Shown: positions 12,603-59,674 of the stretch, piece after piece
Numbering within the stretch: position 1 is the first letter of the stretch
Layout of the letters: every line of letters begins with the position of its first letter
Virus record (IMG/VR): IMGVR_UViG_3300036715_000363
Coordinates: 7,717 to 71,716 of that record
From: a virus
Reading direction: 5' to 3' (one strand)
DNA length: 64,000 bases
Notes under the pieces: model-generated
Told to the model about the DNA's origin: nothing
Database searches by the model: none
Seen by the model: the letters and a program-made list of their open reading frames with translations, nothing else
Made by a program: the position numbers and the translations under genes

Positions 12603-12971
12603 CTAAATTTTTACTACATAGTAAGAAGTTCTCCTCTTTATTGCTAAATCTATCATGTGCTCAGTGCCTTTAGATTTACCATCCCAGAATGCTATTAAAT
12701 GAGTCGCTACTTTACTCATTTCAACATTGCGCGCATACCCTGCACCTTTACCTAAGTTATCCCAATCAGCTGGATATTCTTTACATGGTAAGTTATGCTC
12801 TTTACAGTAATTAATAATTAACCTATCAGCACCAGTTTTAGCAGCACCAGAAATAAATAATATTTTCTTATCTTTATTTCTTTCAATCATTCTACTAATA
12901 TAACCACTAAATGTAGCATAGTCATCGTAGTTACGACTACCAGCTACAATTATACACATGTCGTAATTCAT
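12603..12971 (-). CDS. SLOG/YspA-like (DUF2493-type) protein
   Basis: IIVAGSRNY, ISGAAKTGAD, AGYARN, FWDGKSKGT. Confidence 0.85.
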   Translation of the reverse strand: MNYDMCIIVAGSRNYDDYATFSGYISRMIERNKDKKILFISGAAKTGADRLIINYCKEHNLPCKEYPADWDNLGKGAGYARNVEMSKVATHLIAFWDGKSKGTEHMIDLAIKRRTSYYVVKI

Positions 12972-13293: not shown

Positions 13294-13482
13294 TTAATCA
13301 TTATTATCATATTCAGCTAATTCTAACTCTACTCTATCATTTTCAGCTTTAATACATTTATCACAAACATCATATAACACACCAGAACTACCTTCTTCAA
13401 AATCACGGTGTGGAGTAACTTCTACATTAGTACTTTTACACCAATCACAAGTAGATAATTCTTTACAATTTTTCTTATCCAT
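13294..13482 (-). CDS. small zinc-ribbon-like protein
   Basis: CDWC...CDKC, AGGAG SD. Confidence 0.6.
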   Translation of the reverse strand: MDKKNCKELSTCDWCKSTNVEVTPHRDFEEGSSGVLYDVCDKCIKAENDRVELELAEYDNND

Positions 13483-13494
13483 TATTACTACTCC

Positions 13495-13546
13495 TTTATC
13501 TTTTACCTTTCTTTAATTTATTAGGTTGCATATTTACCCAACTCAT
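13495..13546. repeat. 52-bp direct repeat, copy 2
   Basis: matches 11920-11971. Confidence 0.9.
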
Positions 13547-13558
13547 CTTACCAATATA

Positions 13559-13566
13559 GTTATATA
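13559..13566 (-). promoter_or_regulatory. early-type promoter core TATATAAC
   Basis: conserved intergenic motif. Confidence 0.65.
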
Positions 13567-13593
13567 TGACTACATAAAAATATGACCCACATT

Positions 13594-13633
13594 AAAAAAA
13601 ATATATTAGACTGGTGTAAGCCAGTCTAATATA
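13594..13633 (-). terminator. terminator of tas-like gene
   Basis: tatattagactgg/ccagtctaatata hairpin with A-run. Confidence 0.8.
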
Positions 13634-13643
13634 ACTTAATTAC

Positions 13644-14864
13644 TTATGCTACTTTTTTACCTTTATCAACAGATGCTATACCGTGAACCATACCAAGTTT
13701 TGCAACTGAGTATTCGTCAGCCACTGGTAAACCTTCTAAGGCACGCCATACAGCATACAGGTCAACTAAGAAGCGTTTGATCATGTAGCGTATTGCCATG
13801 TTGTGTTTATGTAAGTCAGTCTTTTCATCGTGTCTAGGGCTGTTATTTAAACGATGTTTATAGTCATAATAAATCTGACCATATTTACTATACTCAGTTT
13901 CAACAGCGTAACCACGACTCTTTAAGAAAGATGTTACTTCATAATCAATCTTATTATTAGAATCAGAATCATATTCAAAACCTAATGTAGTAGCCATCTC
14001 TAACCGCTTACCAGCTCCTAACTTTACACCATCTACCTTAGTAACACCGGTCCGTAAAAAGCTACCACCCAATACACCAACTAGCTTTGTCTTTAAGAAT
14101 GGATTGAAGGTTATAGAGTTACGCACTGCCATCTCACCGTCTTTAGATTTATACTCCACTTTTTCAAGACACCATTCTTTACGTGAACGACCGACACTAC
14201 TAAATGCAACTGGATAACGATCATGTGCTAACATTACTTTACCAAGGTTTTCTGGATTTGATTTAAACTGCGCAACTTCCCAACCTGGTATGACATGTTC
14301 TTTACCTAATTCATCGGTGTAATGACCAATTTCCACAGCATCTAATCCAGCATACTTCCACAGACTAGATGAATATTCTGCTGCCGCTATATCTATTTCA
14401 GATATAATCACACCAGCCATCTGTGGACCAATGCCCTCAATATTTGCTAGGAACTTATCATAGATAGGAACACCTTTTAAAGCATTACCTAACTGATTAA
14501 ACTGGGATTCTTCATTTTCAAGAATCTTCATGTAGTTGTCAACTAAGATAAGTTCACCATACTCAGTAATTAGATCATCACCTTTAAACTTTTTCATTGA
14601 AGGTAATTTACCAGACACAATACCCGTTTCTTCACTGAAGTTTTCTTCAATGATACCATCAGTTATGCGCTGGTAAGATTTGCGAAGCTTGGCTAGTAAT
14701 TTCTTACTCTCTTTATCCAGCTGTTCTTCAGTCATGCCGTTAGTTTCTAAACCTACCTTCACTTTGAAGATAGCGGTTACGCGGTTACCAGTTTGTATAC
14801 GTAACTTTTGCAAGTCATAAGTACCACGAACCATAGTGCGAATAAGTGAGTTAATTAATTCCAT
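13644..14864 (-). CDS. TIGR-associated Tas-like protein (IS110/Nop RNA-binding fold, no N-terminal nuclease; TasA-like)
   Basis: starts directly at coiled coil LIRTMVR..LQKLRIQTGNR; LANIEGIGPQMAGVIISEID..SSLWKYAGL; FNPFLK; YYDYKHRL..H.HNMAIRYMIKRFL.DLY..W; adjacent 36-nt dual-repeat array. Confidence 0.82.
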   Translation of the reverse strand: MELINSLIRTMVRGTYDLQKLRIQTGNRVTAIFKVKVGLETNGMTEEQLDKESKKLLAKLRKSYQRITDGIIEENFSEETGIVSGKLPSMKKFKGDDLITEYGELILVDNYMKILENEESQFNQLGNALKGVPIYDKFLANIEGIGPQMAGVIISEIDIAAAEYSSSLWKYAGLDAVEIGHYTDELGKEHVIPGWEVAQFKSNPENLGKVMLAHDRYPVAFSSVGRSRKEWCLEKVEYKSKDGEMAVRNSITFNPFLKTKLVGVLGGSFLRTGVTKVDGVKLGAGKRLEMATTLGFEYDSDSNNKIDYEVTSFLKSRGYAVETEYSKYGQIYYDYKHRLNNSPRHDEKTDLHKHNMAIRYMIKRFLVDLYAVWRALEGLPVADEYSVAKLGMVHGIASVDKGKKVA

Positions 14865-14915
14865 TTTACTACTCCTATAATAGACTCAATACAAAATTGT
14901 ATTAACATCATAGTA

Positions 14916-14923
14916 GTTATATA
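14916..14923 (-). promoter_or_regulatory. early-type promoter of tas-like gene
   Basis: TATATAAC core in conserved context. Confidence 0.7.
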
Positions 14924-14945
14924 TGACTAAATATTAATAGAATAT

Positions 14946-14980
14946 AAAAAAAATAGAGACCATTACAGTCTCTATTTTTT
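14946..14980 (-). terminator. terminator closing the array transcript
   Basis: aaaaaatagagac-cattaca-gtctctatttttt hairpin. Confidence 0.8.
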
Positions 14981-15378
14981 ATACTTTGGATCATTGGGTT
15001 ACTACGTTTCCGTGATACATTAGTGATTATTGGGTTACTTTCTTTGTTTGATACACTAATAAAACTTGGTTTACTTTGCCTGGGTGATACATTAGACAGT
15101 TTTGGTTTACTTAAATTTTCTGATACATTTAAAGCTGTTGGTTTACTTTTTAGATTTGATACACTATTTTAAAATGGTTTACTTCTCTTGGTTGATACAT
15201 TTTTTGATTCTGGTTTACTCTTCTTGAATGATGCACTAATTTCCAATGGTTTACTTAGCCCTTTTTGATACACTATTATTTTTTGGGTTACTTATTTCTT
15301 CAGATACACTATCTTTAATTGGGTTACTTCCATTGCTTGATACACTATTAATACCTGGGTTACATTGATTTACTGATA
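14981..15378 (-). ncRNA. TIGR-type guide-RNA array, 11 units of 36 nt
   Basis: plus strand TGG(G/T)TTACT at 14995,15031,15067,15103,15139,15175,15211,15247,15284,15320,15356 alternating with TGATACA(C/T)T at 15013,15049,15085,15121,15157,15193,15229,15266,15302,15338 and partial 15374; 22 unique spacers of 9 nt (one of 10). Confidence 0.88.
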
Positions 15379-15413
15379 AAAATATAATACATTTCTGTAG
15401 TATATTCATAGTA

Positions 15414-15421
15414 GTTATATA
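15414..15421 (-). promoter_or_regulatory. early-type promoter of the array
   Basis: TATATAAC core about 35 nt upstream of first unit. Confidence 0.7.
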
Positions 15422-15445
15422 TGGTTATATTTATTTAGAAACAAC

Positions 15446-15474
15446 TAAATAGAGGGCACTACACCCTCTATTTA
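15446..15474 (-). terminator. hairpin/terminator upstream of array promoter
   Basis: taaatagaggg/ccctctattta. Confidence 0.6.
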
Positions 15475-15525
15475 TTATGCACGTTCAGCTATTCCTTTGT
15501 GCATTAAAATAAAAAATAATAATAT

Positions 15526-16821
15526 TTATTTTGATTTAACTACTAACTCAATATTTCTAATACCCTGCTCCACTATATTTAAAGCCTTGGCTGTATTACC
15601 ACGACTAAAGTTAAATGATGAAGCTGATGTATTATAAATAATAATTGATGAGCGTAACATTAATCTATAGCTTGCTAATAAATATTTAATTAACAGATCA
15701 GCTAAAAAAGGTATACTTAGGATAGCATCAGCAAATATATCGTGTGCACCATATCTAGATAAATGCGTAATTAAGGTATTATATTCTCTACTAGCGGCAA
15801 TAGTATCATCTACAGTATCTAATATTTTAATTAAATAATCTATATCAACATCTTTAAATAAAACATGGTCTGAAAATATTGGTAAACCAAATTTATCTTT
15901 ACGTACTACAGTCATATAAAAATTTTCATACTGTTGTTTTAAACTATCAATATTATCTAATTTATAACTACCGTTTAAAGGCGTATCTATTTCTAAACTA
16001 CTTAAACCTAATAATACATCAGATACATAAAAATTATTTTCTGGTGTAGAATTAATCTTCTTAACAGAAGGTAGTTTAATAGAACCTAAAATTAAATGTT
16101 CTAAAGACTTAAACATTTTTACAAAGTTATCATTATATCCAGTAACAGGTGATAATAAAGTTTTTATAGAACTAAGAAAATCATCTTTAGTAAACTTACC
16201 AGTTAATCGTAATAATCCTGTTGAAAAATTACTTGCTGTTTTAAGTTCTTTTAAATATTCATCTTTACCAGTAACTGCTTTACCTTCAGATCCAACTCTA
16301 CAGTTTTTAGTAACTCGTACATTAAAACTAGCTTTAGATTTATATGACTTTAATTCATTTAAGCGAATGCGTAATCTAGCAGATTTTCTATTCTGAAATT
16401 GAATGAATACATAATTGGCTTGTGAGTTATCTACCATTTTCTTAATAACATTACCTAAAGAACTACCTACAGACTTTATAGCACCAAAAATTACTTCACC
16501 TAATTCTTCTGTACTTATTACTTCAATAGAATTATCTTCAAAAGATTTTACACTATTAGTAATAACTCCATTCATACTTAATATACGTAAATCACCTTGT
16601 ATATCTTCTTTAGATATAGTTAATGAATTATTATTAGTGCCATTTATATAAACTTCATATAAATTTTCTATAGCTATTAAGTTATTTTCAGTATCTGTAG
16701 ATATACTATCAATATCATTATTAATTAAATCGTTATTATTAGATATCTGGTTTAATTCATCATCATAATCTAAACTATCAATTATTGTTGGATCTATTTC
16801 TTCTAAAACTATATCATTCAT
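15526..16821 (-). CDS. putative internal head/virion protein
   Basis: acidic N-terminal region with A/S-X-E sites (AIE, SKE, SFE, STE) followed by amphipathic helix, as in 42822 and 44237. Confidence 0.55.
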   Translation of the reverse strand: MNDIVLEEIDPTIIDSLDYDDELNQISNNNDLINNDIDSISTDTENNLIAIENLYEVYINGTNNNSLTISKEDIQGDLRILSMNGVITNSVKSFEDNSIEVISTEELGEVIFGAIKSVGSSLGNVIKKMVDNSQANYVFIQFQNRKSARLRIRLNELKSYKSKASFNVRVTKNCRVGSEGKAVTGKDEYLKELKTASNFSTGLLRLTGKFTKDDFLSSIKTLLSPVTGYNDNFVKMFKSLEHLILGSIKLPSVKKINSTPENNFYVSDVLLGLSSLEIDTPLNGSYKLDNIDSLKQQYENFYMTVVRKDKFGLPIFSDHVLFKDVDIDYLIKILDTVDDTIAASREYNTLITHLSRYGAHDIFADAILSIPFLADLLIKYLLASYRLMLRSSIIIYNTSASSFNFSRGNTAKALNIVEQGIRNIELVVKSK

Positions 16822-59666: not shown

Positions 59667-59674
59667 GCTATATA
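59667..59674 (-). promoter_or_regulatory. early-type promoter variant TATATAGC
   Basis: same flanks as other copies. Confidence 0.55.

What the first reader, a model, noticed from the sequence alone, without database searches (positions are those of the whole stretch)
13594..15474. RNA-guided TIGR-Tas-type system in a phiKZ-like jumbo phage
Seen: 11 units with 36-nt period, reading on the minus strand TATCA-[9 nt A]-AGTAA(A/C)CCA-[9 nt B]-A(G/A)TG, all 22 spacers different, directly upstream of a gene with the IS110/Nop RNA-binding fold. Spacer pairs A/B in transcript order: GTAAATCAA/GGTATTAAT, AGCAATGGA/ATTAAAGAT, GAAGAAATA/AAAAATAAT, AAAAGGGCTA/TTGGAAATT, TTCAAGAAG/GAATCAAAA, ACCAAGAGA/TTTTAAAAT, AATCTAAAA/ACAGCTTTA, GAAAATTTA/AAACTGTCT, CCCAGGCAA/AGTTTTATT, AACAAAGAA/ATAATCACT, CGGAAACGT/ATGATCCAA. 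Known: alternating edge/loop repeats with two 9-nt spacers, processed to 36-nt guides for a Nop-domain protein, define TIGR-Tas, where each spacer reads one DNA strand without a PAM. Inference: the phage carries a programmable repertoire of 11 guides, probably against AT-rich DNA (competing phages, mobile elements or host genes). I cannot tell whether this lineage has been described.
Basis: partly seen in the sequence, partly recalled or inferred. Interest (0 to 1): 0.95.

Follow-up and report, generated by a model that had tools for sequence, protein, structure and literature searches.

The report
TIGR-TasA guide-RNA system, jumbo phage
This fragment of a giant phiKZ-like phage carries a genuine TIGR-Tas system, a kind of RNA-guided DNA-binding system first published in 2025: eleven two-part guide units next to a nuclease-free Tas protein with two extra inserted modules, so it is a new example of a known kind and its targets are still unknown.

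Summary
On the minus strand, window 15378-14982 holds 11 units (ten of 36 nt, one of 37) of the form TATCA-[spacer A]-AGTAA(A/C)CCA-[spacer B]-A(G/A)TG. All 22 spacers differ. The array has its own promoter-like motif and terminator, and a 406-aa gene follows at 14864-13644.

That protein is a Tas protein by sequence (PDB TasR 9mty E 5e-9; NCBIfam TIGR_Tas_endo 96.7 bits, cut-off 100) and by fold (VIA Z 18 to TasH and TasR). It starts at the coiled coil, so it has no nuclease domain and is TasA-type. It keeps the Tyr/His pair that processes guides in dual-repeat systems. It carries two insertions of about 50 aa with no match among solved structures.

Relatives: 129 of 160 related loci have 36-nt arrays. 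The insert-bearing form sits in 114-315 kb phiKZ-like metagenomic phages. Near-identical phages share only about half their units, so arrays turn over.

No target was found. Matches to the phage's own DNA do not exceed mispaired-guide controls.

The most likely function is RNA-guided binding and silencing of foreign or host DNA, by analogy with published TasA work. This is inferred, not shown.

This scan has found the same kind before in several other jumbo phages. Verdict: new member of a known kind (Faure 2025; Xu 2026).

The parts
15446..15474 (-). Terminator-like hairpin that ends the upstream 431-aa gene and bounds the module on its 5' side
   Evidence: stem of 13 pairs on the minus strand
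15406..15422 (-). Promoter-like motif ATATATAACTACTATGA in front of the array. Probably an early promoter of the phage's own RNA polymerase (inferred).
   Evidence: three exact copies in the window (9313, 14908, 15406, all minus strand); nine related minus-strand sites. (review PMC7598289, passages): jumbo phages that encode RNA polymerases have a conserved AT-rich motif of about 10 nt at early promoters.
14982..15378 (-). Dual-repeat TIGR array of 11 units: 5'-truncated edge TATCA, spacer A (9 nt; 10 in unit 4), loop repeat AGTAA(A/C)CCA, spacer B (9 nt), edge A(G/A)TG|TATCA. The last edge is truncated to AGTA.
   Evidence: Folded as RNA it is less structured than shuffles (z +2.88; all 100 shuffles fold at least as well), as expected of a dual-repeat rather than stem-loop array.
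14948..14980 (-). Rho-independent terminator directly after the truncated last edge repeat
   Evidence: 15-pair stem followed by a T run. Faure 2025 (section 4) describes this ending as typical of TIGR arrays.
14908..14924 (-). Second exact copy of the promoter-like motif, in front of tas. Array and tas are therefore probably separate transcription units (inferred).
13644..14864 (-). tasA, 406 aa. Coiled coil about residues 1-130, with a small tip insertion at about 72-88. Nop-type C-terminal domain with two insertions at about 177-224 and about 272-326. Candidate guide-processing pair Y385/H394. No nuclease domain.
13602..13633 (-). Terminator after tas
   Evidence: 13-pair stem followed by a T run
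13557..13566 (-). Variant copy of the promoter-like motif (CATATATAACTATATTGG) that starts the next downstream unit. It bounds the module on its 3' side.

Best explanation
This is a self-contained dual-repeat TIGR-TasA module of a phiKZ-like jumbo phage.

The array is transcribed from its own phage promoter as one precursor that stops at the terminator at 14980-14948. TasA binds the precursor as a coiled-coil dimer and cuts it within the edge repeats, probably with its own Tyr385/His394 pair. This yields eleven tigRNAs of about 36 nt, of the form UAUCA-A-AGUAA(A/C)CCA-B-A(G/A)UG.

[quoted passage not shown] Because the protein has no nuclease domain, the outcome would be binding, meaning a block of transcription or replication, and not cleavage.

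The targets are most likely not the phage's own genome. Host DNA or rival mobile elements are more likely.

Shown here: the array anatomy, the family and fold of the protein, the absence of a nuclease domain, conservation of the Tyr/His pair, co-occurrence of arrays with this protein family, and array turnover.

Inferred from published work on other Tas proteins: processing, dimer binding, tandem-spacer targeting and repression.

My odds: about 0.9 that it is a TIGR-TasA locus, about 0.5 that its natural role is silencing of non-self or host DNA. The confidence given below (0.85) is for the identity of the locus and the guide-RNP mechanism, not for the natural role.
For: ARRAY
- 11 units with the published TIGR grammar: two alternating 9-nt repeats, 9-nt spacers, truncated edge repeats at both ends and a terminator. 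This was compared with Faure 2025 section 4.
- Positions 2 and 7 of the repeats can pair in all the window's repeats (G-C, G-U or A-U).
- These two positions covary across 101 non-redundant related loci: G-C 2444, A-T 711, G-T 474, non-pairs 123 of 3752 repeat instances. This matches the box C/D pair described for TasR.

PROTEIN
- phmmer against PDB: TasR 9mty E 5.4e-9, TasH 21kl E 1.9e-5.
- NCBIfam NF052498 'TIGR-Tas system RNA-guided endonuclease': E 1.8e-27, 96.7 bits against a cut-off of 100, covering model positions 1-215 of 215.
- AlphaFold model: pLDDT 87.4, pTM 0.81.
- Foldseek: the top 10 hits are all TasH or TasR chains, E 1e-6 to 5e-5.
- VIA-align: TasH Z 18.3 (209 aligned, rmsd 2.8) and TasR Z 18.1 (193 aligned, rmsd 1.9). 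These alignments start at chain residues 66 and 111, after the HNH and RuvC domains, and at model residues 3-4.
- SpTasH Y289 aligns with Y385. H296 lies 2 residues before H394 (catalytic residues taken from PMC13421893).
- Y385 is at least 90% conserved and H394 is invariant in 48 sequences. Both are kept in the short-form relatives.

FAMILY CONTEXT
- 2563 homologues at E<=1e-3.
- 129 of 160 fetched related loci have period 36 as their best periodicity next to the gene.
- No neighbouring gene is conserved with tas in 10 long-form loci, so this is a one-protein module.

TURNOVER
- Three phages with 97.5-99% identical Tas share only 14-18 of 31-39 units.
- Metagenome contigs from 4 runs of 4 studies, 95-99% identical over tas, carry array variants that differ by whole units: 100 letters replaced by 28, 44 by 8, 65 by 29, and one step back of 36.

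FUNCTION BY ANALOGY
- FpTasA binds 36-nt RNAs (Faure section 5).
- TasA and dead TasR repress transcription (Xu 2026 section 12).
Against: - No RNA data exist for this locus, so transcription, processing and the 36-nt size are unproven here.
- No target was found for any guide.
- The NCBIfam score is just under its curated cut-off, and the Pfam PF02371 hit is also below its cut-off (20 against 21.3 bits).
- The His of the proposed processing pair is offset by two residues from SpTasH H296 in the pairwise alignment.
- The published repression data are for MbTasA and two inactive TasR proteins, not for an insert-bearing dual-repeat TasA.
- The two insertions, about 100 aa in total, have no known fold and could add or change an activity.
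- The last position of each spacer is semi-conserved (A in 8 of 10 nine-nt A spacers, T in 8 of 11 B spacers). The variable part may therefore be 8 nt, which lowers specificity.
- Of the 14 listed strain differences inside tas, 9 change the residue. I make no claim about selection from this.
Confidence: 0.85

Rival explanations
1. The guides regulate the phage's own genes. TasA acts as a programmable repressor of the phage's own transcription programme or replication, and the targets lie in the phage genome.
For: - Xu 2026 lists 'regulation of the viral lifecycle' as one possible role (discussion).
- In a 315-kb relative (G006) one guide has a contiguous 17-of-18 match to that phage's own DNA. 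Hits with at most 2 mismatches number 8 for 39 guides, against 3.7 expected from 117 mispaired controls.
Against: - Window record (71.7 kb): the best match outside the array has 2 mismatches. The distribution equals that of 110 mispaired A/B controls in both half-site orders.
- Complete 310-kb relative G001: 22 canonical guides have no hit under 2 mismatches. With gaps allowed there are 4 hits for 35 guides against 3.3 expected.
- The guide that matches in G006 has a near-identical copy in G001 that finds no site there.
- Arrays differ by about half their units between phages with 97.5-99% identical Tas. That is not expected of fixed regulatory sites.
- Only 26% of this phage's genome is held, so this test is incomplete.
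Confidence: 0.1
2. The two inserted modules give this jumbo-phage TasA clade an extra activity beyond simple binding. Examples would be recruiting a partner enzyme, binding flanking DNA, or directing the RNP into or away from the phage nucleus.
For: - The insertions at about 177-224 and 272-326 are absent from the roughly 287-aa phage TasA forms. They are present in all 12 long-form loci compared.
- They are modelled with high confidence in the full-length model (blocks with pLDDT 86-96).
- They contain invariant residues: Y182, D184, G279, R287, A291, G295, L314.
- The long form is found on contigs of 114-315 kb. Among the 120 best database relatives, 12 have a longest contig of 200 kb or more.
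- Xu 2026 states that dual-repeat Tas proteins keep a compact Nop core (section 6), so this clade is an exception.
Against: - The segment folded alone (pLDDT 77.8) has no structural match above Z 3.7 among 48,161 chains. That is noise level, so no activity can be named.
- There is no conserved acidic or histidine cluster typical of a nuclease. I inspected by eye and ran no formal test.
- No partner gene is conserved next to tas.
Confidence: 0.15
3. The locus is not a TIGR system. It could be an IS110-type transposase with a bridge RNA, a small CRISPR array, a coding tandem repeat, or a decayed relic.
For: - PHROGs and one GenBank record label relatives 'transposase'.
- Pfam's only near-hit is the IS110 C-terminal family PF02371.
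- A 52-aa ORF overlaps the array.
Against: - NCBIfam IS110 scores 20.1 bits against a cut-off of 140 and matches only profile positions 123-262 of 343.
- No N-terminal domain precedes the coiled coil.
- There are eleven tandem units rather than one bridge RNA.
- The repeats are 9 nt, and PADLOC finds no defence-system (including Cas) protein in tas or either neighbouring gene.
- All three frames of the array carry stops.
- The gene is intact, with promoter, ribosome-binding site and terminator. Its key residues are conserved across 48 sequences.
Confidence: 0.03

Closest known systems
Dual-repeat TIGR-TasA, e.g. FpTIGR of Flavonifractor plautii (Faure et al., Science 2025, PMC12045711; I read sections 4, 5, 6, 8, 10, 24 and the figure legends)
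   Same: A solo Nop-domain effector without a nuclease. The array has two alternating short repeats with two 9-nt spacers per 36-nt unit, truncated edge repeats at the ends and a terminator. It is a single-protein module and is phage-borne.
   Different: - The protein is about 120 aa longer than the roughly 287-aa phage TasA relatives, owing to two insertions of about 50 aa plus a coiled-coil tip insertion.
- The host is a phiKZ-like jumbo phage.
- Array and gene each have their own phage promoter-like motif.
- I had no FpTasA sequence for a direct comparison.
SpTasH of Salicola phage CGphi29 (PDB 21kl, 9w03 and others; PMC13421893, passages read)
   Same: Shared coiled coil and Nop domain (Z 18.3, 21% identity over 209 residues). 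Phage-encoded with a dual-repeat array. The Tyr/His guide-processing pair is conserved (Y289/H296 against Y385/H394).
   Different: SpTasH has an N-terminal HNH nuclease and cuts DNA, and it uses 8-nt spacers. The window's protein has no such domain and has about 100 extra residues inside the Nop domain.
TaTasR (PDB 9mty; Faure 2025)
   Same: Closest solved sequence (E 5.4e-9). Z 18.1, 29% identity over 193 aligned residues. Uses 36-nt tigRNAs with 9+9-nt spacers.
   Different: TaTasR has an active N-terminal RuvC domain. Its repeats start with UG and end with CCA. Here the repeats start with A(G/A) and end with (U/C)CA.
MbTasA and catalytically dead TasR as RNA-guided transcriptional repressors (Xu et al., bioRxiv 2026, 10.64898/2026.09.09.750476; I read the abstract and sections 5, 6, 10, 12, 13)
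   Same: Nuclease-free Tas RNPs that bind DNA and silence genes. This is the functional model I adopt.
   Different: The preprint characterises insertions in stem-loop systems and says that dual-repeat Tas keep a compact Nop core. This locus is a dual-repeat system with large insertions. No experiment exists for this clade.
IS110-family RNA-guided recombinases (IS621, ISCro4) and box C/D Nop5/Nop56/58
   Same: Shared Nop-type RNA-binding fold: ISCro4 Z 13.1, Nop5 Z 7.5, Prp31 Z 7.4.
   Different: There is no DEDD or RuvC domain, no single bridge RNA, and no fibrillarin or L7Ae context.

Membership tests
TIGR-Tas (dual-repeat type) | Array of two distinct alternating 8-12-nt repeats separated by spacers of about 9 nt, giving 36-nt units repeated several times | tested here: met
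   11 units. Edge repeat A(G/A)TGTATCA, loop repeat AGTAA(A/C)CCA, spacers of 9 nt (one of 10). There were 10 pattern matches against 0 in 100 shuffles. The definition comes from Faure 2025 section 4.
TIGR-Tas (dual-repeat type) | [quoted passage not shown] | tested here: met
   The array starts with TATCA at 15378 and ends with AGTA at 14982. A terminator lies at 14980-14948.
TIGR-Tas (dual-repeat type) | Adjacent gene for a Tas protein, i.e. a coiled coil plus a Nop domain of the Tas family | tested here: met
   PDB by sequence: TasR E 5.4e-9, TasH E 1.9e-5. Foldseek top 10 are all Tas chains. VIA Z 18.3 and 18.1. NCBIfam NF052498 scores E 1.8e-27 at 96.7 bits, which is 3.3 bits under its cut-off.
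TIGR-Tas (dual-repeat type) | [quoted passage not shown] | tested here: met
   Both repeats have the form A-R-N4-Y-C-A. Positions 2 and 7 are pairable in all the window's repeats. Across 101 loci, 3629 of 3752 instances are pairable, with A-T and G-C lineages (the pattern allowed only R at position 2 of edge repeats and Y at position 7, and overlapping matches can count an instance twice). The physical pair is inferred.
TIGR-Tas (dual-repeat type) | Tyr/His pair on the C-terminal loop of the Nop domain that processes pre-tigRNA. It is reported as conserved in dual-repeat systems and absent from stem-loop systems. | tested here: met
   Y385 aligns with SpTasH Y289. H394 lies 2 residues after the position aligned with H296 (residues from PMC13421893). 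Y385 is at least 90% conserved and H394 is invariant in 48 sequences. Both are present in 19 further relatives. Catalysis was not tested.
TIGR-Tas (dual-repeat type) | Dimerisation through the coiled coil | tested here: inconclusive
   The long N-terminal helices 2-37, 46-68 and 102-129 superpose on the coiled coil of TasH and TasR. No valid evidence on the dimer itself was obtained.
TIGR-Tas (dual-repeat type) | The array is processed into 36-nt tigRNAs that are bound by the Tas protein | not testable with these tools
   This needs small-RNA or RNP sequencing.
TIGR-Tas (dual-repeat type) | Tandem-spacer recognition of DNA, with A pairing to one strand and B to the other | not testable with these tools
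   No natural target was identified. This needs a binding assay.
TasA subtype (as opposed to TasR or TasH) | No N-terminal RuvC or HNH nuclease domain | tested here: met
   Model residues 3-4 align with residue 66 of the TasH chain and residue 111 of the TasR chain, so the protein begins where their nuclease domains end. The ORF starts at 14864 behind an AGGAG motif. No nuclease family was found in Pfam at E<=10.
IS110-family RNA-guided transposase | N-terminal DEDD (RuvC-like) domain plus a C-terminal catalytic domain, with a full-length match to the family model | tested here: not met
   NCBIfam NF033542 scores 20.1 bits against a cut-off of 140 and covers only profile positions 123-262 of 343. 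Pfam PF02371 scores 20 bits against 21.3, over residues 138-178 only.
CRISPR-Cas | Single repeat of 25-36 nt with spacers of similar size, together with cas genes | tested here: not met
   There are two alternating 9-nt repeats. PADLOC finds nothing for tas or either neighbouring gene. Only those three proteins were scanned.
phiKZ-like (nucleus-forming) jumbo phages | Shared core genes with phiKZ-like phages. Hallmarks are the nuclear-shell protein, a tubulin and split multisubunit RNA polymerases. | tested here: inconclusive
   Three of three large proteins tested have relatives in 221-290 GenBank phage records, and the listed records are jumbo phages including 201phi2-1, Goslar and KTN4. The record is rated 26% complete. 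The hallmark genes themselves were not searched, and only 72 kb is held.

The most novel reading that the evidence does not exclude
The insert-bearing TasA is the effector of a clade of TIGR systems specific to phiKZ-like jumbo phages. The clade has four proposed features:

- An early-expressed guide repertoire.
- Unit-by-unit turnover of guides between near-identical strains.
- Arrays of 5 to about 50 guides.
- Two inserted modules that form a new functional domain, for example for partner recruitment, extra DNA contacts, or placing the RNP relative to the phage nucleus.

On this reading the phage uses the system to silence host or rival DNA that lies outside its shielded genome.
Probability: 0.2. 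Interest if true: 0.7.

Novelty: new member of a known kind. Interest (0 to 1): 0.4.

Why it matters
TIGR-Tas is a young field, first published in 2025. The natural targets and roles of the nuclease-free TasA form are an acknowledged open question (Faure 2025 discussion; Xu 2026 discussion). This locus adds four things.

- It is a clean, compact example, about 1.9 kb with its own signals, that could be expressed as it stands.
- TasA with two large insertions is the form carried by phiKZ-like metagenomic jumbo phages. It is absent from the cultured phiKZ-like phages in GenBank: only phiRSL1, a different jumbo phage, has a relative.
- Arrays change by whole units between strains whose Tas is 97.5-99% identical. 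This bears on the unknown mechanism of spacer gain.
- Tests against the phage's own genome were negative, with proper mispaired controls.

None of this changes the kind. In the held library, 0 papers contain both 'TIGR-Tas' and 'jumbo', and neither main paper's text contains 'jumbo' or 'phiKZ'. Their supplementary tables cover 20,096 tas loci. I could not open them, and they may well list this clade or even this contig.

Tried and rejected
1. Self-targets. I joined each guide's halves in both possible orders, rc(A)+B and B+rc(A), and scanned three sequences: the 71.7-kb record, the complete 310-kb relative G001 and the 315-kb relative G006. I compared the hits with mispaired A/B controls. Nothing exceeded the controls except a weak excess in G006. 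The papers I read do not state the half-site order in words, so both orders were kept.

2. Targets in public collections. I did not scan for them. By my own estimate, an 18-mer is expected to occur by chance in collections of tens to hundreds of gigabases. Xu 2026 makes the same point.

3. Nearest relative. The closest locus I could read is 58% identical.

4. Expression. The look-up of sequencing runs listed 4 DNA holders and no RNA holder. This says nothing about expression.

5. Dimer. Complex prediction with two copies gave 'no answer': median score 0.41 against a mark of 0.42, controls 0.00-0.02. This is not evidence either way.

6. Insertion fold. The segment 170-332 was folded alone and searched with VIA-align against 48,161 chains. 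The best Z was 3.7 (WWE domains), with SAP/LEM-like helices at Z 2.5-3. All of this is at noise level, and a missing match does not show that the fold is new.

7. Rfam. No family matched at E<=1 in 13400-15700. PADLOC found nothing.

8. Conserved neighbours. tblastn of 12 window ORFs against 10 long-form loci found only tas shared, apart from a 243-aa ORF in 2 loci and an adjoining ORF in one of these.

9. A contig joint from 13572 to 15406 in run X4 would delete the whole module. It has only 21 letters on its shorter side, and both ends lie in the repeated promoter motif, so I rejected it as a repeat artefact.

10. Spacer composition. Spacer A is 53% A in the window, but this is not consistent in relatives. 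I draw no conclusion.

11. The first, looser array parser produced many false chains in AT-rich DNA. I replaced it with chained parsing.

This call is the same report with that field added.


Full report
WHAT IS THERE

Read on the minus strand, window 15378-14982 is a 397-nt array of eleven units. Each unit reads TATCA, spacer A, AGTAA(A/C)CCA, spacer B, A(G/A)TG. Ten units are 36 nt long. Unit 4 is 37 nt because its spacer A has 10 nt.

Tandem Repeats Finder sees periods 36 and 72. The junction pattern (loop repeat, N9, edge repeat) matches 10 times with at most 1 mismatch. It matched 0 times in each of 100 shuffles. The 71.7-kb record holds no second array.

The array is not coding. All three frames carry stops (14, 3 and 16). 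As RNA it folds worse than its shuffles (z +2.88). That fits a dual-repeat array and not a stem-loop array.

SIGNALS

- The array is preceded by the 17-mer ATATATAACTACTATGA at 15422-15406.
- It is followed directly by a terminator at 14980-14948.
- The same 17-mer recurs exactly at 14924-14908 in front of the 406-aa gene, and at 9329-9313.
- Nine related sites, all on the minus strand, lie in the window.
- A terminator follows the gene at 13633-13602, and a variant of the motif at 13566 starts the next unit.

A review of jumbo-phage RNA polymerases describes early promoters of such phages as phage-specific, highly conserved AT-rich motifs of about 10 nt (PMC7598289, passages). I therefore read array and gene as two separate, probably early, transcription units. 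This is inferred and no transcript data exist.

THE PROTEIN

Family libraries give weak or mislabelled answers:
- Pfam gives only a sub-threshold IS110 C-terminal hit.
- PHROGs calls the family 'transposase'.

Comparison with solved structures is clear:
- By sequence, the matches are TasR (9mty, E 5.4e-9) and TasH (21kl, E 1.9e-5).
- NCBIfam's TIGR_Tas_endo model scores 96.7 bits (E 1.8e-27) over its whole length, 3.3 bits under the cut-off. The IS110 model scores 20 bits against a cut-off of 140.
- An AlphaFold model from 48 sequences has pLDDT 87.4.
- Foldseek's ten best PDB hits are all TasH or TasR chains.
- VIA-align gives TasH Z 18.3, TasR Z 18.1, an IS110-family recombinase Z 13.1, and Nop5 and Prp31 about Z 7.5.

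The structural alignments begin at model residues 3-4 and at residue 66 of the TasH chain and residue 111 of the TasR chain. The protein therefore starts where the nuclease domains of those enzymes end, which makes it TasA-type.

The Tyr/His pair that cuts pre-tigRNA in SpTasH is Y289/H296 (PMC13421893, passages). It is reported as conserved in dual-repeat systems (Xu 2026 section 10). It corresponds here to Y385 and, two residues further on, H394. Y385 is at least 90% conserved and H394 is invariant.

INSERTIONS

Compared with the roughly 287-aa TasA of smaller phages (about 40% identity), the window's protein has three additions:
- a short insertion at the coiled-coil tip (about 72-88);
- an insertion at about 177-224;
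- an insertion at about 272-326.

The last two flank the conserved GRSRK...ITFNPFLKTKL segment. They are confidently modelled in the full-length model. Folded alone, the region finds nothing above Z 3.7 among 48,161 chains. That shows neither a known nor a new fold.

Xu 2026 states that dual-repeat Tas proteins keep a compact Nop core (section 6). This clade departs from that generalisation.

RELATIVES

- There are 2563 homologues at E<=1e-3. The 120 best are 378-461 aa long and 47-96% identical. Twelve of them have a longest contig of 200 kb or more.
- Of 160 related loci fetched from viral and metagenome collections, 129 have 36 as their best periodicity next to the gene. Most of the others are short contigs.
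- The nine long-form viral loci lie on contigs of 114-315 kb.
- Five of five of their records tested also encode the window's 981-aa protein.
- That protein and two other large window proteins have relatives in 221-290 GenBank phage records. All records listed are jumbo phages, among them 201phi2-1, Goslar, KTN4 and RP12.
- The window's record is rated 26% complete. The phage is therefore a phiKZ-like jumbo phage. I did not test the nucleus genes.
- Among 50,697 GenBank phage records, only Ralstonia phage phiRSL1 has a Tas relative at E<=1e-5.

REPEATS ACROSS THE FAMILY

- The long-form relatives keep the edge repeat AGTGTATCA and a loop repeat that ends in CCCA. One of them (L010) has the window's AGTAAACCA.
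- Their arrays hold from 5 to about 50 units.
- Across 101 non-redundant loci, both repeats have the form A-R-N4-Y-C-A.
- Positions 2 and 7 covary: AACGAGTCA lineages against AGCGAGCCA lineages. The counts are G-C 2444, A-T 711, G-T 474 and non-pairs 123. This is the behaviour described for the box C/D pair of tigRNAs (Faure section 8).

TURNOVER

Three phages whose Tas proteins are 97.5-99% identical share only 14-18 of their 31-39 units. The shared units are in colinear order with blocks of unshared units between them. Phages at 79% Tas identity share 0 of 46 and 23 units.

For the window itself, contigs from four metagenome runs cover the locus. The runs come from four studies of microbial mat and sediment. 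They cover tas at mostly 95-99% identity but carry array variants:
- 100 letters replaced by 28;
- 44 letters replaced by 8;
- 65 letters replaced by 29;
- one step back of 36.

Each variant changes the length by a whole number of 36-nt units. The two longer replacement stretches (28 and 29 letters) contain a loop-repeat-like word flanked by different spacer letters.

Caveats: these are short assembled contigs laid at 85% likeness, some joints have only 30 letters on one side, and one of the runs may be the window's own source.

TARGETS

None was found.
- In the 71.7-kb record, the best off-array match of any joined guide has 2 mismatches. The distribution equals that of 110 mispaired controls.
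- In the complete 310-kb relative, real and mispaired guides behave alike.
- In the 315-kb relative, one guide has a 17-of-18 contiguous self match. Hits with at most 2 mismatches number 8 against 3.7 expected. This is a weak excess that its sister genome does not reproduce.

Self-regulation is therefore not supported, but only a quarter of this phage's genome is held.

MECHANISM

By analogy with FpTasA, which binds 36-nt RNAs, with SpTasH self-processing, with the TasR structure and with repression by TasA and dead TasR, I propose the following. A TasA dimer processes the transcript into eleven guides. It then binds sites of 16-18 bp through both spacers and blocks them without cutting. The likely targets are host or rival DNA.

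The semi-conserved last spacer positions (A in 8 of 10, T in 8 of 11) suggest that the variable part may be 8 nt, as in SpTasH.

COMPARISON AND VERDICT

All sequence-testable defining features of dual-repeat TIGR-TasA are met. RNA processing and DNA binding cannot be tested with these tools.

This scan has already reported the same kind in several other jumbo phages, including insert-bearing TasA. The locus is a new member of a known kind.

Its most interesting aspects are the jumbo-phage-specific insertions and the unit-wise array turnover.

Noticed in passing
L186 (NC_010811.2, Ralstonia phage phiRSL1) 2947-5346: phiRSL1 is the only cultured GenBank phage with a relative of this Tas (ORF034, annotated 'transposase', 30% identity). 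An unannotated 1.4-kb gap follows that gene. The gap holds a chain of 66 nine-nt repeats spaced about 18 nt apart, which is about 33 dual-repeat units. This could be a cultured model for jumbo-phage TIGR systems.
   Followed up: partly
window, minus strand, at 59674, 59044, 57964, 18844, 15421, 14923, 13566, 9328, 3651: A conserved motif CATATATAACTA(C/T)(T/A)ATGA or ...ATTGA occurs at these sites. It usually lies just after a terminator T-run. It is often followed by a small inverted repeat (AATAC..GTATT) that would form a 5' hairpin in the transcript. It is probably the phage's early promoter.
   Followed up: partly
window 15492/15493: Contigs of two metagenome runs (X1, X4) carry 947 extra letters here, between the upstream gene and the array's promoter. 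Some strains therefore have an additional insert at this point.
   Followed up: no
window 14982-15378: The last position of spacer A is A in 8 of 10 nine-nt spacers. The last position of spacer B is T in 8 of 11. The truly variable part may be 8 nt per spacer.
   Followed up: partly
window 12603-12971 (-): A 122-aa protein with a SLOG-family YspA-like domain (Pfam PF10686, E 7.7e-13) lies four genes downstream of tas.
   Followed up: no
window 13294-13482 (-): A 62-aa protein with two CxxC pairs (zinc-ribbon-like) lies directly downstream of tas. It has no Pfam or PADLOC hit and is not conserved next to tas in relatives.
   Followed up: partly
G006:C1 near 50157 (relative of 315 kb): One guide of that phage's array (spacers CAGTAACTG / TTGTCGAAC) matches its own genome at 17 of 18 contiguous positions in the order B + rc(A). 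The sister genome G001 shows no corresponding hit.
   Followed up: partly
window 13644-14864: Of the 14 strain differences listed inside tas by the laid metagenome contigs, 5 are synonymous and 9 change the residue. Seven of the nine lie in the N-terminal coiled-coil part.
   Followed up: partly
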